From: Patescibacteria group bacterium | GTDB lineage: Bacteria; Patescibacteriota; Gracilibacteria; Peribacterales; Peribacteraceae | Assembly: GCA_038064175.1 (NCBI GenBank) | Contig: JBBTTQ010000034.1 | Location: 1 to 26,118, forward strand | DNA length: 26,118 nt | Direction: 5' to 3' | Part shown: positions 11,593 to 24,506 of the stretch, in pieces | Numbering within the stretch: position 1 is the first letter of the stretch | Layout: each line of letters begins with the position of its first letter | Program-made: the position numbers and the translations under genes | The notes under the pieces: generated by a model | Seen by the model: only the letters and a program-made list of their open reading frames with translations | Told to the model about the DNA's origin: nothing | The model's database searches: none

Positions 11593-12861
11593 TCACAGAC
11601 TTGTAGCGTTCAGGAGCGGTTCCTTGAAACTGTCGGGATCGCCGCTGAAGCCCTCGGCTCCGGCCTGCGGAAAAGCGCCGGTCTTCAATGCATCGCGCAC
11701 GGCCGCAACGCCTGCCGCGCCGACCGGTTTTCCCGTGCGAGCGATCCAGAGCGCCGCAACGCCCGCCGCATGCGGGCTCGCCATGCTCGTTCCGCTGATC
11801 GTCTTGTAGGACGAACTTTTCCACGTCGAAGTAATGCAGACACCGGGAGCGGCGATGTCAACCGTGCTGCCGAAATTGCTGAAGTCCGCAAAAGTGTCGT
11901 CGATGTCCGATCGGCAGGTTTTGGGAGCTCCTCCACCGGGGAGACCGTTGAAGTCTGCGATCGCGGAGACGGCAAGAACATCGGGATGATTTGCGGGGCT
12001 GAACGTTGCCGCATCTTTCGCGGAATTCCCGGCTGCAACGACGAAGACGACTCCGGCGGCTGTAGCCCGCGTGAGGGCGCTGTCCATGGCGGCCGTTTGA
12101 CATTCGCAGCCAAGACTCATGTTCGCGACTTCGATCAAAGCCGCATTCGCCGCAACGTAATCGATGCCGGCGATCACATCGGAGAGGAATCCTGAGCCCC
12201 AGCGGTCGAGGACTTTCACGGACCAGAGGCGGGCGCCGGGCGCGACCCCGACGACACCGACGCCGTTATCTTTTGCGGCGGCCGTGCCCGCGACGTGCGT
12301 CCCGTGTCCGTTCAAGTCCTGCGAGGAAAGTTCGCGGCTGAAATTGGCGAGCTTGAAGACGTTCAAATCGGGATGGGTGCTCTGGATGCCCGTATCGAGA
12401 ATGGCGATGTCGACATCCACCCTCTCATCCAGGCCATCGATCTTCGCAGTCGGATTCTTCTCCGCATCGACGCGGTTGATGCCGGTCGGAAGCGTCTGCG
12501 GATCCCTGTGTGAAAAAGCATAGACGATTTCGTCCTTTTCAATAAGAACGACATCCGTGTTCTCCCGGAGGAGCGCAACCTGCGCCGGTGCGAGGGTGGC
12601 GGCGAAACCGCCGAGATACTGAAACACATGGGACACGTCTGCGAACCCTGCGGCACCCGACATTTCATCCAGGAACAACGGCGCGGATGTTCCTTCTTTT
12701 AGGAGGACAATAAAACGTTCCTGAGCACCTCGCTCCATACCCAGTTTCTCCATCACATCAAAAGACTCCTCGGCGACCGCGCTACCGAAGGAGAGAAAAA
12801 ATGCCAAGGCCAGGGCCACGGTTCGTCGTATGGTCGTCACAGAGAGAACATGGTACAGCAT
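11593..12861 (-). CDS. Secreted subtilisin-family (S8) serine peptidase with an inhibitor-I9-like propeptide
   Basis: Signal peptide (RRTVALALAFFLSFGSAVA) and catalytic motifs ILDTG, HGTHVAG, AAGN, GTSMASPH. Start ATG 12861 preferred over 12975. Confidence 0.93.
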   Translation of the reverse strand: MLYHVLSVTTIRRTVALALAFFLSFGSAVAEESFDVMEKLGMERGAQERFIVLLKEGTSAPLFLDEMSGAAGFADVSHVFQYLGGFAATLAPAQVALLRENTDVVLIEKDEIVYAFSHRDPQTLPTGINRVDAEKNPTAKIDGLDERVDVDIAILDTGIQSTHPDLNVFKLANFSRELSSQDLNGHGTHVAGTAAAKDNGVGVVGVAPGARLWSVKVLDRWGSGFLSDVIAGIDYVAANAALIEVANMSLGCECQTAAMDSALTRATAAGVVFVVAAGNSAKDAATFSPANHPDVLAVSAIADFNGLPGGGAPKTCRSDIDDTFADFSNFGSTVDIAAPGVCITSTWKSSSYKTISGTSMASPHAAGVAALWIARTGKPVGAAGVAAVRDALKTGAFPQAGAEGFSGDPDSFKEPLLNATSL

Positions 12862-12888
12862 TCTGTACCCGGACAGTGCGAGCTTTTG

Positions 12889-12917
12889 CTGACAAATATG
12901 CGAAAAAATTGTATAAT
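12889..12917 (+). promoter_or_regulatory. sigma70-type promoter pointing at the ECF gene, overlapping a divergent TTGTAG-N18-TACAAT for the S8 gene
   Basis: CTGACA-N17-TATAAT (plus). Minus-strand elements at 12909-12938. Confidence 0.55.
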
Positions 12918-13096
12918 AATCATATTTTTTGTCTACAACCATTGATCGATGGAAGCACATAGCAGCGACTTTCACTGTCTCATAAGCAGTAAAATCTTTT
13001 TGTGATCAAGAAAAGTGCGCGAAAGAATCCGAGCTGTTGCATGTGAGTAATCTTGGGTACCATTCCCCCCTTTTCCTAATGTGAGGAAATTTTGAC

Positions 13097-13663
13097 ATGG
13101 ATGCATCTCTGAATCTTCGGGAACGCTTCACCCGTGCGTACGAGGAATACGCCGGTGCCATCGCGAAGTACTGTATGCAACAGGGGGCGGATCCCGCCGA
13201 TGCCGAGGAATACACGCAGGAGGCGTTTCTTCGCACGTGGGAGTACCTGGCCTCGGGGAAGGAGGTGCTCCATTTAAAAACATTTCTCTATCAGGTCGCG
13301 TCGAACGTGATGATCGACGAAGTGCGGCGAAAAAAGAGGAAGCGCGAACTCTCGCTCGACGCGCTCCATGAGCAGGGCTTCGATCCCGGCCACGACGACC
13401 GATCGGCACTGCAGAAGCTCATGGAAGCAAAAATCATTCTCTACAAAACAGAGGTGCGGAAAGAGTACAAACTCCTCGTCATGCGCTATATCCATGGATT
13501 TCCCGTGCGCACCATCGCGTCCATGATCGGACAAACACCGAATGCTGTTGCCGTACGATTACATCGTGCCGTCAAACGACTATCCCGAATGTCAATCTCG
13601 GGTTTGCAGATAATGAGCGTTAAATCGACTGCTGATGCACGCAATGAACCACTTATGAAATAA
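13097..13663 (+). CDS. ECF-type sigma-70 factor (divergent; no adjacent anti-sigma)
   Basis: Region 2 (AEEYTQEAFLRTW...KTFLYQVASNVMIDEVRR) and region 4 (MRYIHGFPVRTIASMIGQTPNAVAVRLHRAVKRL). Confidence 0.88.
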   Translation: MDASLNLRERFTRAYEEYAGAIAKYCMQQGADPADAEEYTQEAFLRTWEYLASGKEVLHLKTFLYQVASNVMIDEVRRKKRKRELSLDALHEQGFDPGHDDRSALQKLMEAKIILYKTEVRKEYKLLVMRYIHGFPVRTIASMIGQTPNAVAVRLHRAVKRLSRMSISGLQIMSVKSTADARNEPLMK

Positions 13664-13697: not shown

Positions 13698-13727
13698 TGT
13701 AATACTTATTCTTCGGGGGGCGTCTAA
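13698..13727 (+). promoter_or_regulatory. Putative ECF-type promoter of the giant repeat gene
   Basis: TGTAAT-N17-CGTCTAA, similar to B. subtilis SigX/SigM-type consensus (TGTAAC/TGAAAC-N16-17-CGWC). Ends 28 nt before ATG 13756. Confidence 0.45.
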
Positions 13728-13755: not shown

Positions 13756-16700
13756 ATGCCTACTGTGCGCAGAACTCTCGGAACAAAAACACAAAGGAAG
13801 AAAAAGCAGAAACGTATCACTCTTTCCCTCCGAAGCACGCTCGCGGCAGGGGTGACAGCAGTGATGCTTTTCTGGGTGAACGGGACGGCTTCGGCTAACC
13901 AGTTCAGCGCCATCACGACCGTCGCGAACACGATTGTCAGCGCGATTTTGAGTCCGACGTCGCTCTTCTCGACGACGACGAGTCAAACTTCCAGCGGGCC
14001 GGTGAACCAGGACGTCCTCTACGACGGTTCTGCGGACACGGCTGCGGATGTCTCCGGCGCGATCGCGGCGGATAACACCGCGGATATCGTTCAGGCGGAG
14101 ACCGCAGTGGGTTTAACGAACCAGGACGGCTTGATCGACGGATCCGCCGTCTCCGATGTCCTCGTGGACGTCGCTGCGGATGCGACGGTCGCGGCCACTG
14201 TCGATCAGACGGCTACGGGTCCCGCGAACCAGGACGCAGAGGGCACGAGTGAGGGATCCACGGATGTTGATAGTGACATTGGCGTGGATACCATGAACGA
14301 TCTCCTCGTCGATCAGTCCGCGGACACGGGTCTCATCAATCAAAACGGAGGTATCGTGGCGGATGCCGATTCCGAGGTGGTTCAGCTCATCGCGGGCGGT
14401 TCCACGGGAACGTCCGATGTCACGCAGGCCTCCACGGGCGGCCCCGCGAACCAGGACATCACGAATATCACCGTGCTGAACACGGTCTTGAACGCGGTTC
14501 AGAATATTCTGACCTTCAACGTGGTCGATATTGATCAGAATTGCGTTGGAACATGCAATCAGACTGCGGATGTCGATGTGAATGCGGTGACCCTCGCGGG
14601 CCAGGTGCTCATAGGCGATTCCACGGCGGTAAACACTCTGACGCAGACGAATGCCGGCGGCAGCGCCAATCAGAATGCGGGCAACAACTCCTCGACCGCT
14701 TCCATCCTCGAAGCTCTCCAGGATATCCTCACAGGCAATTCCGTCGGGGTCACCCAGACGGGCGTTGACGGCAACGCAAACCAGGACATGGCGCTCGAAG
14801 GCAATGCCGGCGTCCTCGCGGAGCAGGTGGTCGACAGCAGCGCCGTCACCTTAGACGAAGTCACGCAGGCGAATGCTGGCGGAAGCGCGAACCAGGATCT
14901 TGAAAACAGCGGCACCGCTCTCGATGCGGTTATCGCATTGCAGGGTGCTTCCGCTCTGAATTCGGTTCTTGCCAGTCAGAACAATGATGACGGTAATGCG
15001 AACCAGGATATCGATGTCGCCTTTGACGCGAATGTCGCTGGCGCTCAGGTCGTGGAAGGTACGGCAGCAGCCGTTTCTGACCTCACGCAGACGAACGTCG
15101 GCGGCGCCGCGAACCAGAACGCAGTGAACGCCGCGACGGCAGTCGACTCGATCCTTGCGGGTCAGGAGCTCGGCGCCGCGAACACGGTCGACGCCAGTCA
15201 GGACAACGGCGAAGGAGATGCGAACATGGATATTGATGCGGATGTCTCAGCCAGTGTGGAGGGCGCCCAACTCATTTCCGGTCCGGCAGTCGCAGCGACG
15301 ACGGCCGTACAGTCGAATATCGGCGGCAGCGCGAACCAGGACTTCGGTAATTCCGCGGTCGCTCTGGATACGATCGTCGCCGGCCAGAGCCTCGGCTCTT
15401 CCAATGACGTGGACGTTGACCAGGACAACGACGAAGGCAACGCCAACATGGACGCGGGCGTCTCCGCCCTCGCCGGTGTCGCCGGTGTGCAGGCTATTGA
15501 AGGAACGGCGCTGTCCGCGAACCTGATCGGTCAGGTCGTTGTCGGCGGAGATGGAAACCAGGAACTCGATAACGATTCCGTTGCAAGTGACGTGATCGTT
15601 GCTGGCCAGGAGATGGCGGCCCTCAATCAGATCGATGTCGGTCAGGAAAATGACGACGGCGATGCCAACATGAACGCAGAGGTCGGCGCCGATGCCGCTA
15701 CGGAAGGCGCGCAGCTCATTGAAGGCGGCGCGGTGTCATTGAACGCCCTCGGTCAGGCGGTCGTGGGCGGTGACGGAAATCAGGATCTCACGAACGCTTC
15801 GACAGCGGCGAATGTCATCGTAGCCAGTCAGGATCTGATTGCAGGCAGCGATATCGACGTTACCCAGGACAATGACGACGGCGATGCCAACATGAACGCA
15901 GAGGTCGATGCCGAAGCGGATGCAGCCGGCGCGCAGCTCATCGAAGGAACGGCAGTCTCCGCAACGCTTGCGGGACAGGCAGTCATTGGTGGCGACGCGA
16001 ACCAGGATATGGATCTCACCTCCGTCGCGTCTGACACGATCGTCGCAGGCCAGGGTGTTGCGGCCGGACATGAAATCGATGTGGATCAGGAGAATGACGA
16101 TGGCGACGCCAACATGGACGCAGGCGTCCTTGCGGATGCGGACGCCGATGGCGTTCAGCTCATCTCCGGTCCCGCAGTGGCAACGACGACCGCAGGGCAG
16201 ATCGCGGCGGGCGGCAACGCGAATCAGGATATGGATAACGTGACCGTTGCGTCCGATGCCATCGTTGCGGGCCAGGAGGTCCTCGCCGGCAGCTCGGTCG
16301 ATATCGACCAGGACAACGACGACGGTGATGCCAACATGTCGGCGGATGCTGAGGTTCTCTCCGATGCGGACGGCGCCCAGATCATCGACGGCACTGCGCT
16401 CGCGGACAACGATCTCACACAGCTCAATGTCGGTGGTAACGCCAATCAGGACATGGCGAACGATTCTGCCGCGACGGATGTCATTGTCGCCGGACAGACG
16501 GTTTTCGCTGGCAGCGAAGTCGAGATGGACCAGGAGAACGACGACGGTAATGCCAACATGGATATCGACTTCCTCGCCGATGCGGATGCGGACGGAGTGC
16601 AGGTGGCGACGGGGGTTGCTGTTTCCTTGAGCGAACTGGATCAGACGAACGTCGGTGGCGACGCGAACCAGACGGTCGATCACGATAGCGATGTCGTCTC

Positions 16701-18915
16701 CGTCACGGATCTCGACCAGGCGGTCGTTGCCGTGAACGGCGCGGAACTCGATCAGGACAATGACGACGGCAATGCCAATATGGATCTCGCTATGGACATG
16801 GACAGCGACGCGACAGCGGCTCAGGTCGGCACGACCGTCGCATTCGACAGCGCTACGATCGGTCAATTGAATGACGGCGGCGCCGCGAACCAGAGCGTCG
16901 AGAGCAACACTCCTTCGACAGCAGTCACCGTTGGTGACCAGGCAGTCGTAGCGGTCAATGGCGCGGAGGTGGATCAGGACAACGACGATGGCAGCACGAA
17001 TATGCTCGTGGACGCGGATCTCGATGCGGCCGCAAATGGAGGACAACTCCTCGACTCCGTTGCCGGGGATGTCCTCACCGTCGACCAGACAAACGTCGGC
17101 GGCTCGGCCAATCAGGATGTGGACACGAACAGTGAGTCCACAGCGGTAACGATCGGTGTTCAGGAAATCGTCGCCGTGAATGCAGCGGACATTGATCAGG
17201 ACAACGACGATGGCTCTGGGAATATGAGCGCCCTCCTCGACATGGACAGCGACGCCGCAGGCGAACAGGGTGTCACATCCGTCGCAGGCAGCAGCTCGGA
17301 CGTCGATCAAACGAACGTCGGCGGCTCCGCGAACCAGACGGCTGCCAGCGACGGCACATCCACGGCTGTCGGTGCAGGCGATCAATCCATCACGTCCCTG
17401 AACGATGCGGACGTCGACCAGGACATTGACACCTCGCTCGGCGCAGGTTCGCAGGCGGCGGACATCATCGCCGATGCGGATGCTTCAGGCACGCAAGGCG
17501 TTACCTCCGTTTCCGGCAACAGCCAGGACTTGGATCAGACGAACGGCGGAGGCGCTGCAAATCAGGACGGCAGCAACACGGCGGATGCCACTTCCCTTGC
17601 AGACGGCAACCAGGAGATCGCTGCGGTGAATGACATCGACCTCGATCAGGATATCGATCTCGTCGCAGGCGCCGGTGCGCAATCGACGACGATCATCGCC
17701 GATGCAGACGCTTCGGGCAGCCAGACGACGGTTGCGGTAGCCGGCAACAGCCAGGACTTGGACCAGACGAACGGCGGAGGATCCGCGAACCAGACCGGTT
17801 CCAATAATGGCTCTGCGACGGCGGTCGCCGATGCGGGCTCGTCCCAGACCATCACGGCCTTGAACGACATCGACGTCGATCAGGACCTCGATGCGACGAG
17901 CGCGGCAGGCGCGCAGTCAGCGCTCATCACCCCGACGGCCACGGCCACGGGCGAGCAGACGACGGTCGCAGCCTCCGGAAATGACCAGTCCGTCACGCAG
18001 ATGAATGACGATGGCGCAGCGAACCAGGACGGTTCGAACACGGGAAATGCGACAACCGTCTCCGATGCGGATCAGGACATCTCAGCCACGAACAACGTGA
18101 CCCTCGTCCAGGACGCGACGGCAACGAACGCGGCAGTCGCCCAGGCGGCTCGCGTCGCTCCGACGTCCGAGGCTTCCGGCAGCCAGACAGTGGATGGCGT
18201 CTCCGGCAACACGCAGTCGGTGGATCAGAGTGTCGATGACGGCTCCGGTAACCAGGAAGGCAGTAATGACGGCACGGCCGTCACAGGCGCCTCCGGCGAA
18301 CAGGACGTCGCTTCCGAGACGAACACATTGATCACCCAGGACTGCGACGTGAGCTTCGGCGCATGCGCTCAGTACGTCGATCTCGCTCCGGGCGCCAGCA
18401 CGACGGCCAACCAGGAACTCTCGGCCGGCTCCGGCAACGATCAGACGGTGAATCAGGCGGTGGAGGACGGCTCCGGTAACCAGAACGCCGCGAACTCCGG
18501 CGAAGCGGAAACGATTGCGGATGCCGATCAGGATGCTTCGTCCTCCGTCGACACGACAGTTGTCCAGACCTGCACGCTGACGGGCGGCGCCTGCGCCCAG
18601 TACACGGGCGGCACGCCGACTTCGACGACGACAGCCGATCAGTCCATCACGGCAACGTCGGACAATGATTCCGAAATCAACCAGGACCTGGACGCCGACG
18701 CTTCCGGCAACCAGGATGCTGATTCCGACACAAGCGCTCTCACATATGTCTCCGCTGTTCAGAATGCTCTCTCGAACACGACGACGGACGTGACGCAGAC
18801 ATCGGGTGCCGGCGGCAATCAATCGGCCACGGTGAACGGTTCTTCGACCACGACCTCGACCATGAGCTTGACCGCAGGTTCGTCGAACACGACCACGATC
18901 AACCAGAATCAGTAG
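13756..18915 (+). CDS. Giant secreted acidic repeat protein (1719 aa; about 44 Q/N-patterned ~37-aa units)
   Basis: Basic n-region, hydrophobic segment and ASA cleavage motif (about aa 47). The rest alternates QxxxGGxANQ and QDNDDGxANM units with a 74-aa period. No C-terminal anchor. Confidence 0.92.
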   Translation: MPTVRRTLGTKTQRKKKQKRITLSLRSTLAAGVTAVMLFWVNGTASANQFSAITTVANTIVSAILSPTSLFSTTTSQTSSGPVNQDVLYDGSADTAADVSGAIAADNTADIVQAETAVGLTNQDGLIDGSAVSDVLVDVAADATVAATVDQTATGPANQDAEGTSEGSTDVDSDIGVDTMNDLLVDQSADTGLINQNGGIVADADSEVVQLIAGGSTGTSDVTQASTGGPANQDITNITVLNTVLNAVQNILTFNVVDIDQNCVGTCNQTADVDVNAVTLAGQVLIGDSTAVNTLTQTNAGGSANQNAGNNSSTASILEALQDILTGNSVGVTQTGVDGNANQDMALEGNAGVLAEQVVDSSAVTLDEVTQANAGGSANQDLENSGTALDAVIALQGASALNSVLASQNNDDGNANQDIDVAFDANVAGAQVVEGTAAAVSDLTQTNVGGAANQNAVNAATAVDSILAGQELGAANTVDASQDNGEGDANMDIDADVSASVEGAQLISGPAVAATTAVQSNIGGSANQDFGNSAVALDTIVAGQSLGSSNDVDVDQDNDEGNANMDAGVSALAGVAGVQAIEGTALSANLIGQVVVGGDGNQELDNDSVASDVIVAGQEMAALNQIDVGQENDDGDANMNAEVGADAATEGAQLIEGGAVSLNALGQAVVGGDGNQDLTNASTAANVIVASQDLIAGSDIDVTQDNDDGDANMNAEVDAEADAAGAQLIEGTAVSATLAGQAVIGGDANQDMDLTSVASDTIVAGQGVAAGHEIDVDQENDDGDANMDAGVLADADADGVQLISGPAVATTTAGQIAAGGNANQDMDNVTVASDAIVAGQEVLAGSSVDIDQDNDDGDANMSADAEVLSDADGAQIIDGTALADNDLTQLNVGGNANQDMANDSAATDVIVAGQTVFAGSEVEMDQENDDGNANMDIDFLADADADGVQVATGVAVSLSELDQTNVGGDANQTVDHDSDVVSVTDLDQAVVAVNGAELDQDNDDGNANMDLAMDMDSDATAAQVGTTVAFDSATIGQLNDGGAANQSVESNTPSTAVTVGDQAVVAVNGAEVDQDNDDGSTNMLVDADLDAAANGGQLLDSVAGDVLTVDQTNVGGSANQDVDTNSESTAVTIGVQEIVAVNAADIDQDNDDGSGNMSALLDMDSDAAGEQGVTSVAGSSSDVDQTNVGGSANQTAASDGTSTAVGAGDQSITSLNDADVDQDIDTSLGAGSQAADIIADADASGTQGVTSVSGNSQDLDQTNGGGAANQDGSNTADATSLADGNQEIAAVNDIDLDQDIDLVAGAGAQSTTIIADADASGSQTTVAVAGNSQDLDQTNGGGSANQTGSNNGSATAVADAGSSQTITALNDIDVDQDLDATSAAGAQSALITPTATATGEQTTVAASGNDQSVTQMNDDGAANQDGSNTGNATTVSDADQDISATNNVTLVQDATATNAAVAQAARVAPTSEASGSQTVDGVSGNTQSVDQSVDDGSGNQEGSNDGTAVTGASGEQDVASETNTLITQDCDVSFGACAQYVDLAPGASTTANQELSAGSGNDQTVNQAVEDGSGNQNAANSGEAETIADADQDASSSVDTTVVQTCTLTGGACAQYTGGTPTSTTTADQSITATSDNDSEINQDLDADASGNQDADSDTSALTYVSAVQNALSNTTTDVTQTSGAGGNQSATVNGSSTTTSTMSLTAGSSNTTTINQNQ

Positions 18916-19062: not shown

Positions 19063-19094
19063 AAAAAAAAGCCGCCCCGCGCGCGCGGGGCGGC
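19063..19094 (-). terminator. Intrinsic terminator of the minus-strand gene
   Basis: GC-rich palindrome gccgccccgcgcgcgcggggcggc with an A8 run on plus (U-tract on minus). Confidence 0.85.
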
Positions 19095-19114
19095 CCAGAT
19101 TCTTTGTGCATCCA

Positions 19115-19456
19115 TTACTTCGTCTCCCTTGTTTCCTCCACCGGTTTTTCCCCGACATCCAGTGCGTCCTCCGGGAGTCCGTAGTGCAGGAGACATTTCT
19201 TCAGGAAAGACTCATAGTCGCTCCTGAGGTACATATTCTTCTCCGCCATGTTGGTGTAGGTCTTTGCATCTTTCGTTCCCTTCGCCAACTCTGCCTTGGA
19301 TTTGAGAAGCGTGCGGGCATCCGCCGACGCTTCCCGCGCACATTGCCGGTAGGAAAGGATCGGTCTGATCTGGAACCAGTAGAAAAAGAAACCGGTGAGA
19401 ACGAGCGCGACGAGGAGCCAGAGTCGCCCGCGGAATGGATTGCTTCGAAGCAGCAT
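19115..19456 (-). CDS. Hypothetical protein with one N-terminal TM and a Cys pair
   Basis: MLLRSNPF...WLLVALVLTGFFFYWFQIRP...QC...KKCLLHYGL. ATG 19456 follows a pyrimidine-rich leader. Confidence 0.7.
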   Translation of the reverse strand: MLLRSNPFRGRLWLLVALVLTGFFFYWFQIRPILSYRQCAREASADARTLLKSKAELAKGTKDAKTYTNMAEKNMYLRSDYESFLKKCLLHYGLPEDALDVGEKPVEETRETK

Positions 19457-19625
19457 GGGAAGGAAGGGGAAGAAGAAGAAGAACGCGCGGCGAACCGGGC
19501 GAGTGGCAGACGGTACGTGAGCGAACATTCATTTGTCAACATCCATTGCCTTTTGTCCACTTCGAACGTACGAAAAAACGCTATTAAAACTCCTTTTTCC
19601 CTTATTTAAGCCATTCTACTTCTTT

Positions 19626-19663: not shown

Positions 19664-20986
19664 ATGCTGCGCTGGATTGCCACCGTGCTTCTCTCGGCCT
19701 GTCTCTCGCTTGGGATGGTTCTTCCCGCGGAGGCTGCGTACGTCTCGCTTAAGGATTTCAAGCTCCATGATTTTGACGATGCAATCTTAAAGCAACTCGG
19801 GTTCAGCGTCGGGGTCGTCGTGTATTACAGTGAAATGGCCTCCATCACATCCGAACAGGTGACGGAGCGGAGGCAACTGGAACGGATCGGATGCAATCCG
19901 TTCCTCATCATGAAAGAAGGACAGGTGCTGGAAAAAGGATATAACTGCCGGTCGTTCTTCTGTGCCGGCTACATCAAAGGACCGAAGCAGTGCATGACGA
20001 ATAAAGGCGAACCCACGGGCGGCGTCGTTGAGATCAGCCGGCGCCTCGGTCTCGTCGTGATTCCCGAAGAGACGACCTACTTCGACATGATGCCTTCGGC
20101 GGAGGTAACGGAGAGCATGCGCACAAGGATGGCTGATATGTCTGAAGTCCGCTGCAGGCCGTTTTATATCCGCATGTTCGATATCCTCATCGGCGAAGGC
20201 TACACATGTGACGAGGTGGGACAGTTCCCGTACTTCTCCCCGGCGAACCTTTGCAAAGACGATTGGCGTGATCAGAAGAAAGTTTTTTCCTGCACGCTCC
20301 CGGAGCGCCGCGATGAAGTGGAGATCCGCAAAACCGCCATTTCTCTTCGCGAGGACAGGAGCGTGAGCAGCGCCGCTTCGTCCGCTTCTTCTTCAGACTT
20401 TTCCGTTATGACAGGCATTCCCCCCACGTCGTTTGTCGACGTCATCGCCGGTCAGTATGGCTATACGGCCATCATGGATCTCCTCCGTCGCGGGATCATT
20501 CGCGGTTACGATGACGGACTCTTTCGGCCGAAAGCGATGGTGAATCGGGCCGAATTTGTGAAAATGCTCATCGGCGGACTGCACCCTTCAGAGGCACAGG
20601 GCGAAACGAACTGTTTTCCGGATGTCACGGACGAGTGGTTCGCGTCCTCCGTCTGCGCGGCGAAGAGACTCGGTTGGGTTTCCGGTTACAGCGACGGCAG
20701 ATACCGGCCGGACCAGGTCATCCGTCGCGACGAAGGACTCAAGATTGTCGTTGCCTCCCTGGGGCTGCCCCTCGAAACGACAGCCCCCGCGCCGCCGGAC
20801 GTTGCAAGCAGCACCTGGTTCACGCCCTACGCCCGCAAAGCCATGGAACTCAGACTCATCCTGGAGCCGACCTTTCGTCCCATGCTGATCGCAACGCGCG
20901 CCGATGCGGCAGTCTGGATGTACAGAGGCCTTCAGGCGATGCAAGGGGCAGGAACATCCTCATCCAGTACAAAAACTTCTCCATAA
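19664..20986 (+). CDS. Secreted protein with a duplicated Cys-rich module and C-terminal SLH domains
   Basis: Signal peptide (...PAEA); SLH motifs FVDV...GIIRGYDDGLFRPKAMVNRAEFVKM, FPDVTDEWF...GWVSGYSDGRYRPDQVIRRDE, PPDVASSTWF...ATRADAA. Confidence 0.88.
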   Translation: MLRWIATVLLSACLSLGMVLPAEAAYVSLKDFKLHDFDDAILKQLGFSVGVVVYYSEMASITSEQVTERRQLERIGCNPFLIMKEGQVLEKGYNCRSFFCAGYIKGPKQCMTNKGEPTGGVVEISRRLGLVVIPEETTYFDMMPSAEVTESMRTRMADMSEVRCRPFYIRMFDILIGEGYTCDEVGQFPYFSPANLCKDDWRDQKKVFSCTLPERRDEVEIRKTAISLREDRSVSSAASSASSSDFSVMTGIPPTSFVDVIAGQYGYTAIMDLLRRGIIRGYDDGLFRPKAMVNRAEFVKMLIGGLHPSEAQGETNCFPDVTDEWFASSVCAAKRLGWVSGYSDGRYRPDQVIRRDEGLKIVVASLGLPLETTAPAPPDVASSTWFTPYARKAMELRLILEPTFRPMLIATRADAAVWMYRGLQAMQGAGTSSSSTKTSP

Positions 20987-21163: not shown

Positions 21164-23275
21164 ATGTCCGCACGCTCTCTCTCGATTCAGTCACTCTTCA
21201 CCGTTCCGGTTCTCGTCATTGCATGGGTCGTTGGAACCCTTTCATTTTCTGCGTTGGCGGCGGGCGAAACATGTAACGGCCTTGCAGCGACGATCGTTGG
21301 CACCGCGGGCAATGATTCGATCAATGGAACGTCCGGCGATGACGTGATCGTCGGTCTCGGCGGCCATGACAGCATCAATGGAAATGGCGGCAACGATACC
21401 ATTTGCGGGAATGCGGGTGATGACGAGATCAATGGGGACAATGGGCATGATTACATCGAAGGCGGAGACGGTGCGGATGAAATCAAGGGCGACAACGGCG
21501 ATGACACGATATTCGGAGGAGAGGGCAATGACGAGATCGACGGCGGCAACGACGAGGACTCGCTGTGCGGCGATGCCGGCAACGACATTCTCGAAGGCAA
21601 GAATCATAATGACACGCTCTGCGGCGGCGATGGCGAGGACGAATTGAAAGGCGGTATCGGTGACGACGTTTTGGACGGTGGCGCGGGTACCGATACGCTC
21701 CAGGGTGATCTTGGAATCGATGCCTGCCACCAGGGTGAATCGAACTCCGGCTGCGAATCGACGAGCGGCTCGGCCTCTTCGCTCTGCCCCGCAAGCGGTG
21801 GCGGCAGTTCCAGCAGCGTCAGCAGCGCAAGTTCCAGCGACAGTTCAGGGGCAAGCAGTGTCAGTTCATCGGTTTCTTCAAGCTCATCTTCCGTCGTATC
21901 CTCCTCTTCCTCCGTTGACCCCGGAATTGTTCCGACATGCCGGGGGAGAACCGCGACTATCTACGTGTATCTCGGAGTCATCATCGGAGGCGACGACCAC
22001 GGCAGTCTCTATGGCGGAACATTGAATGGAACGGCGGGAGACGATGTGATGGTCGGCACTGCCGGTTCCGATACGATCGACGGCGACATGGGCAATGACG
22101 TCATCTGCGGTCTTTCGAGCAACGATGACATCGAGGGGGGATTCGGCGATGACGAGGTGGATGCAGGAGACGGCAATGACACCGTCACAGGAGAGATCGG
22201 CGACGACACGCTCTGCGGCGGGGAGGTGGACGACGTGCTCAGAGGGAGTATCGGTGACGATATTCTCTGCGGCGACAATGGCAATGATACGCTGGAAGGC
22301 GATATCGGCAGTGATAAATTGCAGGGCGGTCCCGACACCGACTCCCTCGATGGAGGCATTGACAGCGATATCTGCCTGAACGGAGAATCACTCTCCAGCT
22401 GCGAGGACACGGCAACGCCGTTCCCGGAGTGCGATCCCTCCGGCGGCTCTTCGTCCAGTGACGGCAGCTCTTCAAGTTCAGGCGGGTCTGGCGGGTCCGA
22501 GGGATCATCGAGTTCGGATGGCGGCGGCTCCAGTATTTCCTCCAGCGCCGGGAGCAGCGTAAGCAGCAGCGGTGGGGGAGGGGGAGGGGGAGAAGACGAG
22601 GGTGGTGGGGGGGGCGGAACGCTCAGTCTCGACGGCACGAACGGCCAGGGCGGTCATCGCGGTCACCGGACGAACTTGATCGCAGGCGTCGCGCGCATGC
22701 TGGTCTTCTGGCACCTGGAACCCGGTGCGCGGGGCTTTACCGGCATCGCTTCGGGCGGATTCGGTGGCATCGCCCCCGGGGCGTTCGGCGGGAACCCGGG
22801 AGGAAGCTATTCGGAGGAGGAACTGAATCTCGCTTGCGCTCTCCGGGAGGCGCTTCCGCGCATCATGACAGCAGGAGTTCTTCAGTGGACGATTGAATAC
22901 ATCGCCAACCTCGTGAACGGCAATCCTGAGGTTATCCGGGAAGTGCTCATCGATCCCGATCTCTGTGAAAAACCCTCCTTCTCGGCGAGCGCGGCTCCGG
23001 AACTTTTGGTTACCCAGGCGGAACGCATCCCTTTGCCCGTTGCCGACGACGGCACGCCGACATCGACGAATATGGCATTCAACGCCTGTATCCGGAGACA
23101 AGTTCTTCTTGATCGTGACGGAAAGCCTTATAACTGCCGTCGCTACTACGAAGCGAACACCTGGATCCACCCGGATACGGGAGCGACGTTCGTGTGGCAT
23201 AACCGTGTGCGTCCCATGCTCTTCCTGCCGGACAACGTGTACGCCGTGCGTGACACGTACGTCGTCTCCAGGTAG
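21164..23275 (+). CDS. Secreted hemolysin-type (RTX-like) Ca-binding repeat protein: two modules, Ser/Gly linkers, unknown C-terminal domain
   Basis: N-terminal signal peptide; many GGxGxDxI/L nonapeptides; each module opens with TCxG..AT and closes with C..GE...CE. Confidence 0.88.
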   Translation: MSARSLSIQSLFTVPVLVIAWVVGTLSFSALAAGETCNGLAATIVGTAGNDSINGTSGDDVIVGLGGHDSINGNGGNDTICGNAGDDEINGDNGHDYIEGGDGADEIKGDNGDDTIFGGEGNDEIDGGNDEDSLCGDAGNDILEGKNHNDTLCGGDGEDELKGGIGDDVLDGGAGTDTLQGDLGIDACHQGESNSGCESTSGSASSLCPASGGGSSSSVSSASSSDSSGASSVSSSVSSSSSSVVSSSSSVDPGIVPTCRGRTATIYVYLGVIIGGDDHGSLYGGTLNGTAGDDVMVGTAGSDTIDGDMGNDVICGLSSNDDIEGGFGDDEVDAGDGNDTVTGEIGDDTLCGGEVDDVLRGSIGDDILCGDNGNDTLEGDIGSDKLQGGPDTDSLDGGIDSDICLNGESLSSCEDTATPFPECDPSGGSSSSDGSSSSSGGSGGSEGSSSSDGGGSSISSSAGSSVSSSGGGGGGGEDEGGGGGGTLSLDGTNGQGGHRGHRTNLIAGVARMLVFWHLEPGARGFTGIASGGFGGIAPGAFGGNPGGSYSEEELNLACALREALPRIMTAGVLQWTIEYIANLVNGNPEVIREVLIDPDLCEKPSFSASAAPELLVTQAERIPLPVADDGTPTSTNMAFNACIRRQVLLDRDGKPYNCRRYYEANTWIHPDTGATFVWHNRVRPMLFLPDNVYAVRDTYVVSR

Positions 23276-24394: not shown

Positions 24395-24506
24395 TTTTCG
24401 GAAGAGCCCTGATACAAGGGAAAAAAAGAAGATAGGTGCAAGGATATTTGAAAAGTGATCCTGCAATCTTTGTAACAAATTTCAGCGGGAGACGTTTCAT
24501 CATTGC

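What the first reader, a model, noticed from the sequence alone, without database searches (positions are those of the whole stretch)
13756..18915. 1719-aa secreted, lysine-free protein built from about 44 Q/N-laddered 37-aa repeats: candidate beta-solenoid fibre or functional amyloid
Seen: after a signal peptide the whole chain is a regular alternation of two ~37-aa units, Q-x3-GG-x-ANQ and Q-DNDDG-x-ANM. The period is exactly 74 aa in the core (QTNVGGAANQ to QSNIGGSANQ to QVVVGGDGNQ). Each unit has a second Gln mid-unit (AGQ/GAQ/GVQ) and small or beta-branched residues between the turns. By eye the ~1670-aa mature part has no Lys, no Trp and one Arg, is very rich in Asp/Asn/Gln/Ala/Gly, and has three Cys pairs near the ends (CVGTC, CDVSFGAC, CTLTGGAC). 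It has no TM, SLH or sortase anchor and ends in TTINQNQ. Known: fixed Q/N columns and G-N-Q turns typify beta-arch amyloids (CsgA curlin, Pseudomonas FapC), which have far fewer repeats. Inference: a long beta-solenoid or self-polymerising, possibly cation-binding filament or matrix protein. It costs about 5 kb in a probably reduced genome and would be nearly invisible to tryptic proteomics. I do not recognise the repeat as a named family.
Basis: partly seen in the sequence, partly recalled or inferred. Interest (0 to 1): 0.85.

Follow-up and report, generated by a model that had tools for sequence, protein, structure and literature searches.

The report
Giant ultra-wide cross-beta ribbon protein
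A tiny groundwater bacterium (Candidatus Peribacteria) encodes a 1,719-residue secreted protein with no lysine that is predicted to fold into a flat two-sheet beta-solenoid, with rungs about three times longer than those of curli, and to stack end to end; nothing like it has been described.

Summary
Window 13756-18915(+) encodes a 1,719-aa protein with a Sec-type signal peptide. Its mature part has 0 Lys, 0 Trp and 1 Arg and is tiled by 37-aa units in strict A/B alternation. It matches no Pfam, NCBIfam or PDB sequence family. A profile search of 1.84 billion proteins found only 10 relatives. In genomes it occurs once each in 17 of 200 species of one Peribacteria (CPR) family.

The gene is real: dN/dS is 0.15, and four independent public assemblies reproduce it.

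The "beta-solenoid" inference is supported in silico, but with a different geometry. AlphaFold2 (pLDDT 95.7) makes each 37-aa unit one ~33-residue strand, so a rung is 74 aa (strand, DDG turn, strand, GG turn) in two face-to-face parallel sheets. Covariation, one-sided conservation and superposition on flattened beta-helices agree with this.

A head-to-tail docking test passed (0.63 against 0.00 for controls). An ECF sigma gene lies directly upstream in 14 of 16 loci, and a conserved ECF-type promoter precedes the giant gene.

Most likely it is a sigma-controlled extracellular structural ribbon or fibre, curli-like in principle but not a curlin. Its biological role is untested.

The parts
11593..12975 (-). 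S8 subtilase with I9 propeptide, divergent from the sigma gene; a possible processing protease (link inferred only)
   Evidence: Pfam Peptidase_S8 at 5.9e-45. An ortholog lies near the giant gene in 8 of 16 loci.
13097..13663 (+). ECF-type sigma-70 factor directly upstream of the giant gene
   Evidence: Pfam Sigma70_r2 and r4_2; TIGR02937 sigma70-ECF. An ortholog lies directly upstream on the same strand in 14 of 16 loci.
13698..13726 (+). ECF-type promoter TGTAAT-N17-CGTCTA, about 30 nt before the ATG
   Evidence: Conserved in the alignment of six loci. GTAA[TCG]-N16-18-CGTCT is found upstream of the giant gene in 9 of 16 loci, against 0.007 expected per 330 nt. The strict motif occurs once in the whole genome.
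13756..13896 (+). Signal peptide (aa 1-47): basic n-region, hydrophobic core, ASA|NQ
   Evidence: Read from the translation. It holds all 5 Lys and the only Trp. Cleavage is predicted by eye, not by a tool.
13897..14667 (+). N-terminal degenerate rungs (aa 48-304). The first strand (48-84) has no acidic residue. The CVGTC turn lies at aa 263-267 (nt 14542-14556).
   Evidence: Unit HMM hits at 84-304 with rising scores; composition. Residues 49-117 form the predicted head-to-tail interface.
14668..17331 (+). Core: 24 exact 37-aa units, making 12 rungs of 74 aa (aa 305-1192)
   Evidence: Exact 37-aa spacing; alignments A2 and A5. AF2 pLDDT is 95.7 with eight ~33-residue strands in 296 aa. Covariation.
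17332..18915 (+). C-terminal rungs of 76-78 aa (aa 1193-1719) plus the stop codon. Two C-x6-C turns lie at aa 1530-1537 (nt 18343-18366) and 1606-1613 (nt 18571-18594). The last strand is uncharged and ends in the conserved ...GSSxNTTTIxQ.
   Evidence: Alignment A6. AF2 pLDDT 85.6, with strand to the last residue. VIA Z 10.8-12.9 to SufB/D beta-helices. Interface residues 1652-1719.
19069..19096 (-). GC-rich hairpin terminator between the convergent giant gene and the small membrane-protein gene
   Evidence: 12-bp stem followed by a T run.
19115..19528 (-). Conserved 137-aa membrane protein of unknown function, a frequent neighbour of the giant gene
   Evidence: ORF listing. 52% identity to the gene called beside P0006. 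tblastn signal beside the giant gene in 10 of 16 loci. No Pfam family.
19664..20986 (+). 440-aa secreted protein with a Cys-rich N-domain and SLH repeats; a candidate wall anchor (link inferred only)
   Evidence: Pfam SLH at 2.3e-20. Orthologs at 45-51% identity near the giant gene in distant loci, in 11 of 16 loci.

Best explanation
The gene encodes a Sec-exported structural protein found only in a subset of Candidatus Peribacteria (CPR).

Outside the cell it is predicted to fold into an unusually wide, flat, two-sheet parallel beta-solenoid. Each 74-aa rung has four parts: an A strand of about 33 residues, a tight D-D-G turn, a B strand of about 33 residues running back against it, and a G-G turn. 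There are 23 such rungs, each stacked on the next.

The inner faces are zipped by in-register Asn/Gln ladders (N1, Q2, Q18, Q30, N32, N38, Q53, Q67), by small or beta-branched residues, and by large-against-small pairs (Q18-G51, Q53-A16). The outer faces are variable, acidic and free of Lys and Arg. Cys pairs staple three A-to-B turns near the two ends.

If the strands are straight, one molecule is a tile roughly 11 nm wide, 11 nm long and 1 nm thick.

The first and last strands are uncharged and rich in Ser, Thr and Asn. They are predicted to stack on each other, so molecules would join head to tail into ribbons or fibres.

Transcription is most likely driven by the adjacent ECF sigma factor from a conserved TGTAAT-N17-CGTCTA promoter.

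Shown by tools: the sequence anatomy, purifying selection, distribution, gene neighbourhood and promoter motif. Predicted: the fold and the head-to-tail contact. Inferred: sigma dependence, polymerisation in vivo and a structural role (fibre, matrix, coat or attachment ribbon).
For: The gene is real and constrained:
- dN/dS is 0.15 against the same-genus ortholog.
- Orthologs of 1,086-2,619 aa occur as single copies in 17 of 200 genomes of the order (12 of 84 genera). None was found in the other families of the class.
- Independent assemblies agree.

Fold:
- AF2 on a 4-rung fragment gives pLDDT 95.7 and pTM 0.81, with eight strands of about 33 residues broken only at the DDG and GG turns.
- The C-terminal 527 aa give pLDDT 85.6 and are all strand to the last residue.
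- VIA-align superposes the models on flattened parallel beta-helices (SufB/D type). Z is 5.6-5.8 (rmsd 2.0-2.5 A over 114-118 residues) for the core and 10.8-12.9 (rmsd 2.4-3.2 A over 187-207 residues) for the C-terminal model, at about 16 aligned residues per 37-aa unit. CsgA comes next at Z 10.6. This fits two opposed sheets, not one flat sheet.

Independent of AF2:
- Profile columns pair like-with-like or large-with-small along i+j=69, and only at even A positions.
- On 103 double units, 18 of the top 60 APC-corrected MI pairs have i+j between 68 and 73 (expected 4.8, p=4e-7). 15 of those 18 lie on the same face. The i to i+37 register is not enriched.
- Assigned inner positions are 83% identical between orthologs, against 51% for outer positions.
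- Cys pairs replace the N32/N38 positions that flank the turn.

Polymerisation: ESMFold2 head-to-tail docking gives ipSAE 0.63 against a best control of 0.00. That mark was reached by 51 of 78 solved complexes and 2 of 108 mismatched pairs. The interface is residues 1652-1719 against 49-117, one whole rung from each side. The terminal strands carry no acidic residue.

Regulation: the sigma gene is adjacent in 14 of 16 loci. The promoter motif is present in 9 of 16 upstream regions, against 0.007 expected, and is unique in the genome in its strict form.
Against: - There is no experimental datum at all, and no RNA run holding the gene was listed.
- Model coordinates could not be inspected. Strand straightness, sheet spacing and handedness are deduced from DSSP strings and superpositions.
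- AF2 can be overconfident on regular repeats, and the alignments were shallow (20 and 10 rows, partly internal repeats). The five C-terminal models ranged from pLDDT 85.6 down to 47.7.
- The docking controls were unrelated proteins, not other solenoid ends, so a predictor may simply continue the repeat.
- The MI analysis treats related units as independent.
- No anchor, nucleator or secretion partner has been identified.
- The sigma factor belongs to a family present in 136 of 200 Peribacteria, most of which lack the giant gene. No anti-sigma factor is evident.
- A net charge of about -267 would oppose stacking unless counter-ions are present.
Confidence: 0.54

Rival explanations
1. The fold is the same, but the protein does not polymerise. 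Each molecule is a single cell-attached plate or stalk, for example an S-layer-associated shield or a host-contact adhesin, held by a partner such as the neighbouring SLH protein.
For: - An SLH protein with a Cys-rich N-domain is conserved near the gene in 11 of 16 loci.
- Disulfide-stapled turns and uncharged terminal strands could act as caps rather than docking faces.
- CPR bacteria are epibionts that invest heavily in surface proteins (PMC4736985).
Against: - The head-to-tail test passed with a full-rung interface.
- AF2 shows strand to the last residue and no separate cap domain.
- No interaction with the SLH protein was tested.
- The neighbourhood may be plain synteny among related genomes.
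Confidence: 0.22
2. The geometry is different. Either each 37-aa unit is its own coil or beta-arch stacked in parallel, or the chain is one flat antiparallel meander sheet.
For: - A and B units are homologous and share N1, Q30, N32, G35 and A37 in the same order. In-register stacking would therefore also give ladders.
- The units are pseudo-palindromic, so sequence alone cannot exclude an H-bonded hairpin.
- Coordinates were not inspected.
Against: - The i to i+37 register shows no covariation, whereas i+j around 69 does, and on one face only.
- Q18/Q53 and G17/G51 are out of register between A and B.
- DSSP breaks occur only at the unit ends.
- Superposition at 2.0-2.7 A on two-sheet beta-helices, at one strand per unit, cannot be reached by a flat sheet.
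- The docking interface spans 68-69 residues per chain, not about 35.
Confidence: 0.1
3. The primary role is cation binding or mineral control. Arrays of Asp on a rigid beta surface would sequester Ca2+, Mg2+ or metals, or template or inhibit mineral growth in carbonate-rich groundwater.
For: - The mature chain has 268 acidic residues and a net charge of about -267.
- Outward-facing D-x-D-x-D runs would form Asp ladders at 4.8 A spacing.
- An RTX calcium-binding protein lies nearby.
- The organism comes from groundwater.
Against: - Acidity is not conserved in the family. P0006 has 63 acidic residues in 1,387 aa yet keeps the repeat, the Q/N ladders and 0 K / 0 R.
- There is no recognisable Ca-binding motif family hit.
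- Nothing was tested.
Confidence: 0.1
4. The protein is a largely disordered, acidic, low-complexity secreted protein, and the predicted order is an artefact of repeat regularity.
For: - Composition is biased: A, D, G, T, V, S, N and Q make up about 84%.
- Phmmer-type searches returned nothing significant.
- AF2 overconfidence on repeats is a known risk.
Against: - Unit length is kept at exactly 37 aa, without a single indel, over 24 units and across genera.
- Strict two-residue periodicity, with one face 83% conserved and the other 51%.
- Covariation on the hairpin diagonal.
- Two different predictors give confident beta structure.
Confidence: 0.04

Closest known systems
Curli subunit CsgA (Pfam Curlin_rpt PF07012; Sleutel et al. 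2023, PMC10192328)
   Same: - Secreted, two-sheet, parallel in-register beta-solenoid built from strand-arc-strand repeats.
- Each strand is bracketed by Asn and Gln, which form ladders around a small or hydrophobic steric zipper.
- Arcs are 4-residue X-G-X-X turns.
- Head-to-tail stacking of monomers continues the solenoid (for curli; here).
- CsgA is among the best VIA matches (Z 6.1 and 10.6).
   Different: - The rung is 74 aa with ~33-residue strands, against about 23 aa with ~7-residue strands.
- An extra mid-strand Gln is present.
- No match to Curlin_rpt.
- No CsgG in the genome.
- Sec signal only, in a CPR bacterium with SLH-type wall proteins (a likely single-membrane envelope is general knowledge, not tested here).
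- 23 rungs in one chain, with disulfide-stapled turns.
- The superposition rmsd on CsgA is poor (about 8 A).
SufB/SufD core beta-helix (PDB 1VH4, 5AWF, 9H78)
   Same: Best structural superposition: a flattened two-sheet parallel beta-helix, with Z up to 12.9 and rmsd 2.0-3.2 A over 114-207 residues.
   Different: SufB/D is a cytoplasmic Fe-S assembly scaffold with much shorter strands. Only about 16 of every 37 residues align and identity is 5-10%. There is no sequence relationship and no functional link. The resemblance is of architecture only.
Methanospirillum hungatei sheath protein SH (Wang et al. 2023, PMC10593813)
   Same: An extracellular amyloid-like protein whose beta-arches form two giant sheets 10 A apart. 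It polymerises by strand addition into cell-scale structures, with disulfides between units. This shows that such cross-beta sheets can form envelopes.
   Different: SH is archaeal and small, with 6 arches per monomer plus a cap domain. Its strands are antiparallel within each sheet. Assembly is into rings and hoops. Sequence similarity was not tested here because no SH sequence was at hand.
Pseudomonas FapC functional amyloid (PDB 9U4U, 9NQD)
   Same: A secreted, repeat-built, Q/N-rich cross-beta fibre. It was the top Foldseek row.
   Different: The match is not significant (E 3.7e-3, TM 0.12). FapC has a Greek-key type fold, three repeats with linkers and a dedicated fap operon. No family hit.
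Bacterial ice-nucleation proteins and RTX/MpAFP beta-rolls
   Same: Very long single-chain beta-solenoids with dozens of rungs and ordered outward-facing arrays. RTX and antifreeze rolls appear among the weaker VIA hits (Z 3.5-7.2).
   Different: Their rungs are 16-18 residues with other motifs (GGxGxD; TxT). No HemolysinCabind or other hit on this protein.

Membership tests
Curlin / CsgA (PF07012) | Sequence match to the Curlin_rpt profile | tested here: not met
   hmmscan of P0001 against Pfam at E<=1 gave 0 families. A six-frame search of the own genome with PF07012 gave no match, while the E. coli control was positive.
Curlin / CsgA (PF07012) | Repeat of about 19-23 aa forming one strand-arc-strand rung (N-x5-Q motifs a and b) | tested here: not met
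   The unit is exactly 37 aa and the rung is 74 aa. Curlin repeat length is taken from PMC10192328.
Curlin / CsgA (PF07012) | Two-sheet parallel in-register beta-solenoid with an Asn/Gln-flanked steric zipper | tested here: met
   Met in prediction only: AF2 and VIA, covariation and one-sided conservation.
Curlin / CsgA (PF07012) | Dedicated CsgG/E/F secretion channel and CsgB nucleator | tested here: not met
   PF03783 (CsgG) was not found in the own genome, which is 96.5% complete; controls were positive. CsgB, CsgE and CsgF were not searched separately.
Functional amyloid (operational definition) | Fibres with cross-beta diffraction, ThT or Congo red binding, and detergent resistance | not testable with these tools
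   This needs protein expression and biophysics.
SLH-anchored S-layer proteins | SLH domain(s) in the protein | tested here: not met
   No PF00395 hit on P0001. The neighbouring gene at 19664-20986 has SLH.
Sortase-anchored (LPXTG) surface proteins | C-terminal LPXTG motif, hydrophobic stretch and basic tail | tested here: not met
   The sequence ends ...SSNTTTINQNQ, with no LPXTG and no hydrophobic or basic tail.
RTX beta-roll proteins (PF00353) | GGxGxD nonapeptide repeats | tested here: not met
   No HemolysinCabind hit on P0001. The neighbour at 21164-23275 has 9 stretches.
ECF sigma / anti-sigma pair, with the giant protein as anti-sigma | Cytoplasmic anti-sigma domain of about 50-90 aa before the membrane helix | tested here: not met
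   Only about 25 basic, poorly conserved residues precede the hydrophobic segment in P0001-P0005. No anti-sigma Pfam hit.
FapC amyloid | Sequence or fold match to FapC | tested here: not met
   No Pfam hit. Foldseek gives E 3.7e-3, probability 0.14 and TM 0.12.

The most novel reading that the evidence does not exclude
This is a previously unseen class of extracellular cross-beta material. It would be an ~11-nm-wide, ~1-nm-thick two-sheet tape with the longest beta-solenoid rung known (74 aa, two ~33-residue strands). The tape would polymerise head to tail under the control of a dedicated ECF sigma factor. It would form a coat, sheath or host-attachment ribbon on ultra-small CPR cells, making it a bacterial counterpart of the archaeal amyloid sheath.
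Probability: 0.3. Interest if true: 0.85.

Novelty: new variant of a known kind. Interest (0 to 1): 0.7.

Why it matters
From my own knowledge, not from a tool result, beta-solenoid rungs described so far span roughly 12-30 residues, and curli rungs are about 23 (PMC10192328). A natural, strongly constrained protein with 74-residue rungs and ~33-residue strands would extend the known design space of cross-beta and functional-amyloid architecture. It would also offer a scaffold for wide, flat protein tapes that lack Lys and Arg.

For CPR biology, it is a 5-kb investment in a 1.18-Mb genome, with a sigma factor encoded beside it. That makes it a concrete, testable candidate for the surface or attachment structures of organisms that cannot yet be cultured alone.

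It also explains why metaproteomics would miss it: trypsin has a single cleavage site in 1,672 residues.

Tried and rejected
- **Word-seeded homology search.** The search of 5.8 billion proteins with the full protein gave nothing at E<=1e-3.
- **ESM Atlas by features.** The scores were uninformative (0.76-0.78), and there was no usable named hit for the core fragment.
- **PDB sequence search with the unit profile.** Only chance hits, with E>=0.24.
- **Foldseek on PDB and AFDB clusters.** No fold match, with TM below 0.2. The Atlas shape search gave TM 0.58-0.60, but only to unnamed clusters.
- **First AF2 alignment.** MAFFT slid overlapping windows of the same protein onto each other (A4), so I rebuilt the alignment from non-overlapping windows (A5).
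- **Giant protein as anti-sigma factor.** Rejected, because the cytoplasmic tail is too short and poorly conserved.
- **Phyletic co-occurrence of the sigma with the giant gene.** Not informative. Similar ECF sigmas (35-46% identity) occur in 136 of 200 genomes, and the own genome holds a 41% identical paralog.
- **Autoregulation of the sigma gene.** The motif is absent from 12976-13096.
- **RNA evidence.** No RNA run was listed.
- **The 167-aa plus-strand ORF at 19106-19609.** Rejected as a gene, in favour of the minus-strand 137-aa ORF.
- **Weak relatives P0012 and P0013 (E about 1e-4).** They lie in other gene contexts without a sigma gene, so I did not use them for inference.
- **DNA tandem-repeat search.** It found nothing.
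Full report
**1. Observation**

The ORF at window 13756-18915(+) is intact and encodes 1,719 aa. The N-terminus has a basic n-region (all five Lys of the protein), a hydrophobic core (the only Trp) and ASA|NQ. I read this as a Sec signal peptide cleaved after A47. That is read by eye; no predictor was available.

The mature chain has 0 K, 0 W, 1 R (R1466), 2 H, 219 D, 49 E and 6 C. Its computed net charge is about -267. The other genes in the window average 4.6% K and 6.2% R, so this composition cannot be chance.

The [AGT]N[QM] landmark recurs at exactly 37 residues from 304 to 1192, which is 24 units without a single indel. It recurs at 36-37 aa before that and at 76-78 aa per double unit after it. 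An HMM of the 74-aa double unit tiles essentially the whole mature chain in 23 copies.

**2. The gene is real**

- Tandem Repeats Finder finds no DNA-level repeat, so the units are old and diverged.
- Contigs from four public groundwater runs in three studies cover the gene at 99% identity or more. They show no indels or joints and only two shared base differences, at 15777 and 15987.
- Against the same-genus ortholog (73% identity, 1,720 aa), dN/dS is 0.15.

**3. Organism and distribution**

The genome is 1.18 Mb and 96.5% complete. Its relatives are named Candidatus Peribacteria, a CPR lineage.

The protein matches no Pfam or NCBIfam family and no PDB sequence. A profile of the 74-aa unit, searched against 1.84 billion representative proteins, found only 10 hits at E<=1e-3. 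Those checked are labelled hypothetical or carry no name.

In genomes, the unit occurs as one large ORF (1,086-2,619 aa) in 17 of 200 species of the order, covering 12 of 84 genera. It was found in none of 337 genomes from other families of the class. There is no paralog in the own genome.

Unit length is kept at 37 aa in other genera, while unit number varies. Absence of Lys and Arg holds in most members. Acidity does not: P0006 has 0 K and 0 R but only 63 D+E in 1,387 aa.

**4. Fold**

AlphaFold2 on four double units, with 19 aligned non-overlapping fragments, gave pLDDT 95.7 and pTM 0.81. DSSP shows eight strands of about 33 residues, interrupted only at the DDG and GG turns. The C-terminal 527 aa gave pLDDT 85.6 and are strand to the last residue, although the five models varied.

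I could not open the coordinates, so I deduced the geometry from four lines of evidence.

(a) VIA-align superposes the models on flattened two-sheet parallel beta-helices of the SufB/D type. The core model scores Z 5.6-5.8 at rmsd 2.0-2.5 A. The C-terminal model scores Z 10.8-12.9 at rmsd 2.4-3.2 A over 187-207 residues. That is about 16 aligned residues per 37-aa unit, or one SufD strand per unit. CsgA follows at Z 10.6. Consecutive units must therefore alternate between two sheets about 10 A apart, which a single flat sheet cannot do.

(b) In the unit profile, columns pair along i+j=69 only at even A positions: Q2-Q67, [MVL]4-[LI]65, N6-N63, S8-S61, A10-A59, D12-G57, I14-V55, A16-Q53, Q18-G51 and A22-A47. 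This like-with-like and large-with-small pattern is what a face-to-face zipper requires.

(c) APC-corrected mutual information on 103 double units puts 18 of the top 60 pairs at i+j between 68 and 73 (expected 4.8, p=4e-7). Of these, 15 lie on that same face. The i to i+37 register is not enriched.

(d) The assigned inner positions are 83% identical between orthologs, against 51% for outer positions.

In addition, the Cys pairs replace the N32 and N38 positions on either side of the A-to-B turn.

Taken together, a rung is 74 aa: the A strand, the DDG turn, the B strand and the GG turn. A stacks on A and B on B, and the invariant N and Q residues form ladders.

If the strands are straight, a molecule measures about 11 x 11 x 1 nm. 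That figure is an inference.

**5. Self-association**

The first strand (48-84) and the last strand (1687-1719) contain no acidic residue and are rich in S, T and N. The C-terminal ...GSSxNTTTIxQ is conserved across the family.

I ran a head-to-tail docking test with the C-terminal 221 aa and the N-terminal 256 aa (ESMFold2, no alignments). It scored ipSAE 0.63 in three runs, against 0.00 for the best of three controls. In the tool's calibration that mark was reached by 51 of 78 solved complexes and 2 of 108 mismatched pairs. The interface is residues 1652-1719 against 49-117, one whole rung from each side.

This supports end-to-end stacking but does not prove it. A predictor may simply continue a repeat, and the controls were unrelated proteins.

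**6. Context and regulation**

An ECF-type sigma gene (13097-13663) lies directly upstream on the same strand in 14 of 16 loci, across many genera and despite other rearrangements.

The motif TGTAAT-N17-CGTCTA sits about 30 nt before the ATG and is conserved. GTAA[TCG]-N16-18-CGTCT occurs in 9 of 16 upstream regions, against 0.007 expected per 330 nt, and near-variants occur in several more. The strict form is unique in the genome.

The motif is absent upstream of the sigma gene itself, and no anti-sigma factor is evident. The giant protein's cytoplasmic tail is too short to be one.

The sigma factor belongs to a family widespread in Peribacteria. The link therefore rests on adjacency and the promoter motif, not on co-occurrence across genomes.

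Frequent neighbours are an S8 subtilase, a 137-aa membrane protein (19115-19528, minus strand) and a Cys-rich SLH protein. Their involvement is conjecture.

**7. Comparison with known systems**

In principle the protein works like curli. Both have strands bracketed by N and Q, G-containing 4-residue arcs, a steric zipper, parallel in-register sheets and head-to-tail continuation (PMC10192328).

It is not a curlin, for three reasons:
- It does not match Curlin_rpt.
- Its rung is about three times longer.
- The genome has no CsgG.

The archaeal sheath protein SH shows that two giant beta-sheets can build cell envelopes (PMC10593813), but it differs in topology. I found no paper describing this family.

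**8. Verdict**

This is a real, strongly constrained, lineage-restricted secreted protein. It is predicted with good but purely computational support to be an ultra-wide two-sheet beta-solenoid that can stack end to end, and it is probably expressed from an ECF-dependent promoter.

Its cellular role is unknown; it could be a fibre, a coat, a matrix component or an attachment structure. I classify it as a new variant of a known kind, with interest 0.7.

Noticed in passing
window 19106-19609 (+) versus 19115-19528 (-): The 167-aa plus-strand ORF looks like the antisense shadow of a real 137-aa membrane protein on the minus strand (one TM helix plus an ~80-aa domain with 2 Cys). That protein is conserved beside the giant gene in many loci, in either orientation, and has no known family.
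   Followed up: partly
window 15777 and 15987: Contigs from all four public runs read C and G where the window has A and T. Both are third codon positions: G674 is synonymous and I744 becomes M. This is either a strain difference or a small consensus error inside the repeat region.
   Followed up: partly
window 19664-20986: A 440-aa secreted protein with a Cys-rich ~230-aa N-domain of unknown family and C-terminal SLH repeats. Orthologs at 45-51% identity lie near the giant gene in distant Peribacteria.
   Followed up: partly
window 21164-23275: A 703-aa RTX (HemolysinCabind, 9 stretches) protein in a CPR genome, where no outer membrane or type I secretion context was looked for. RTX-like hits also recur near the giant gene in other loci.
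   Followed up: no
G000 contigs C14, C15, C53, C72 and window 13097-13663: The genome carries five ECF-like sigma genes plus one primary sigma in 1.18 Mb. The C14 copy is 41% identical to the one beside the giant gene.
   Followed up: partly
window 24471-24497: A looser ECF-like motif, TGTAAC-N16-CGTTT, lies here, as another first-stage note said. It is one of 8 loose matches in the genome, against 5 for the reversed control pattern, so it is not clearly significant on its own.
   Followed up: partly
P0007 (metagenome protein, 570 aa): A relative whose last ~70 residues turn Arg/Pro-rich. This looks like a frameshift or a broken assembly of a longer family member.
   Followed up: no
window 15736-17385 (-) and other long antisense ORFs: Long open frames antisense to the repeat gene (up to 549 aa) are by-products of its biased codon content, not genes.
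   Followed up: no
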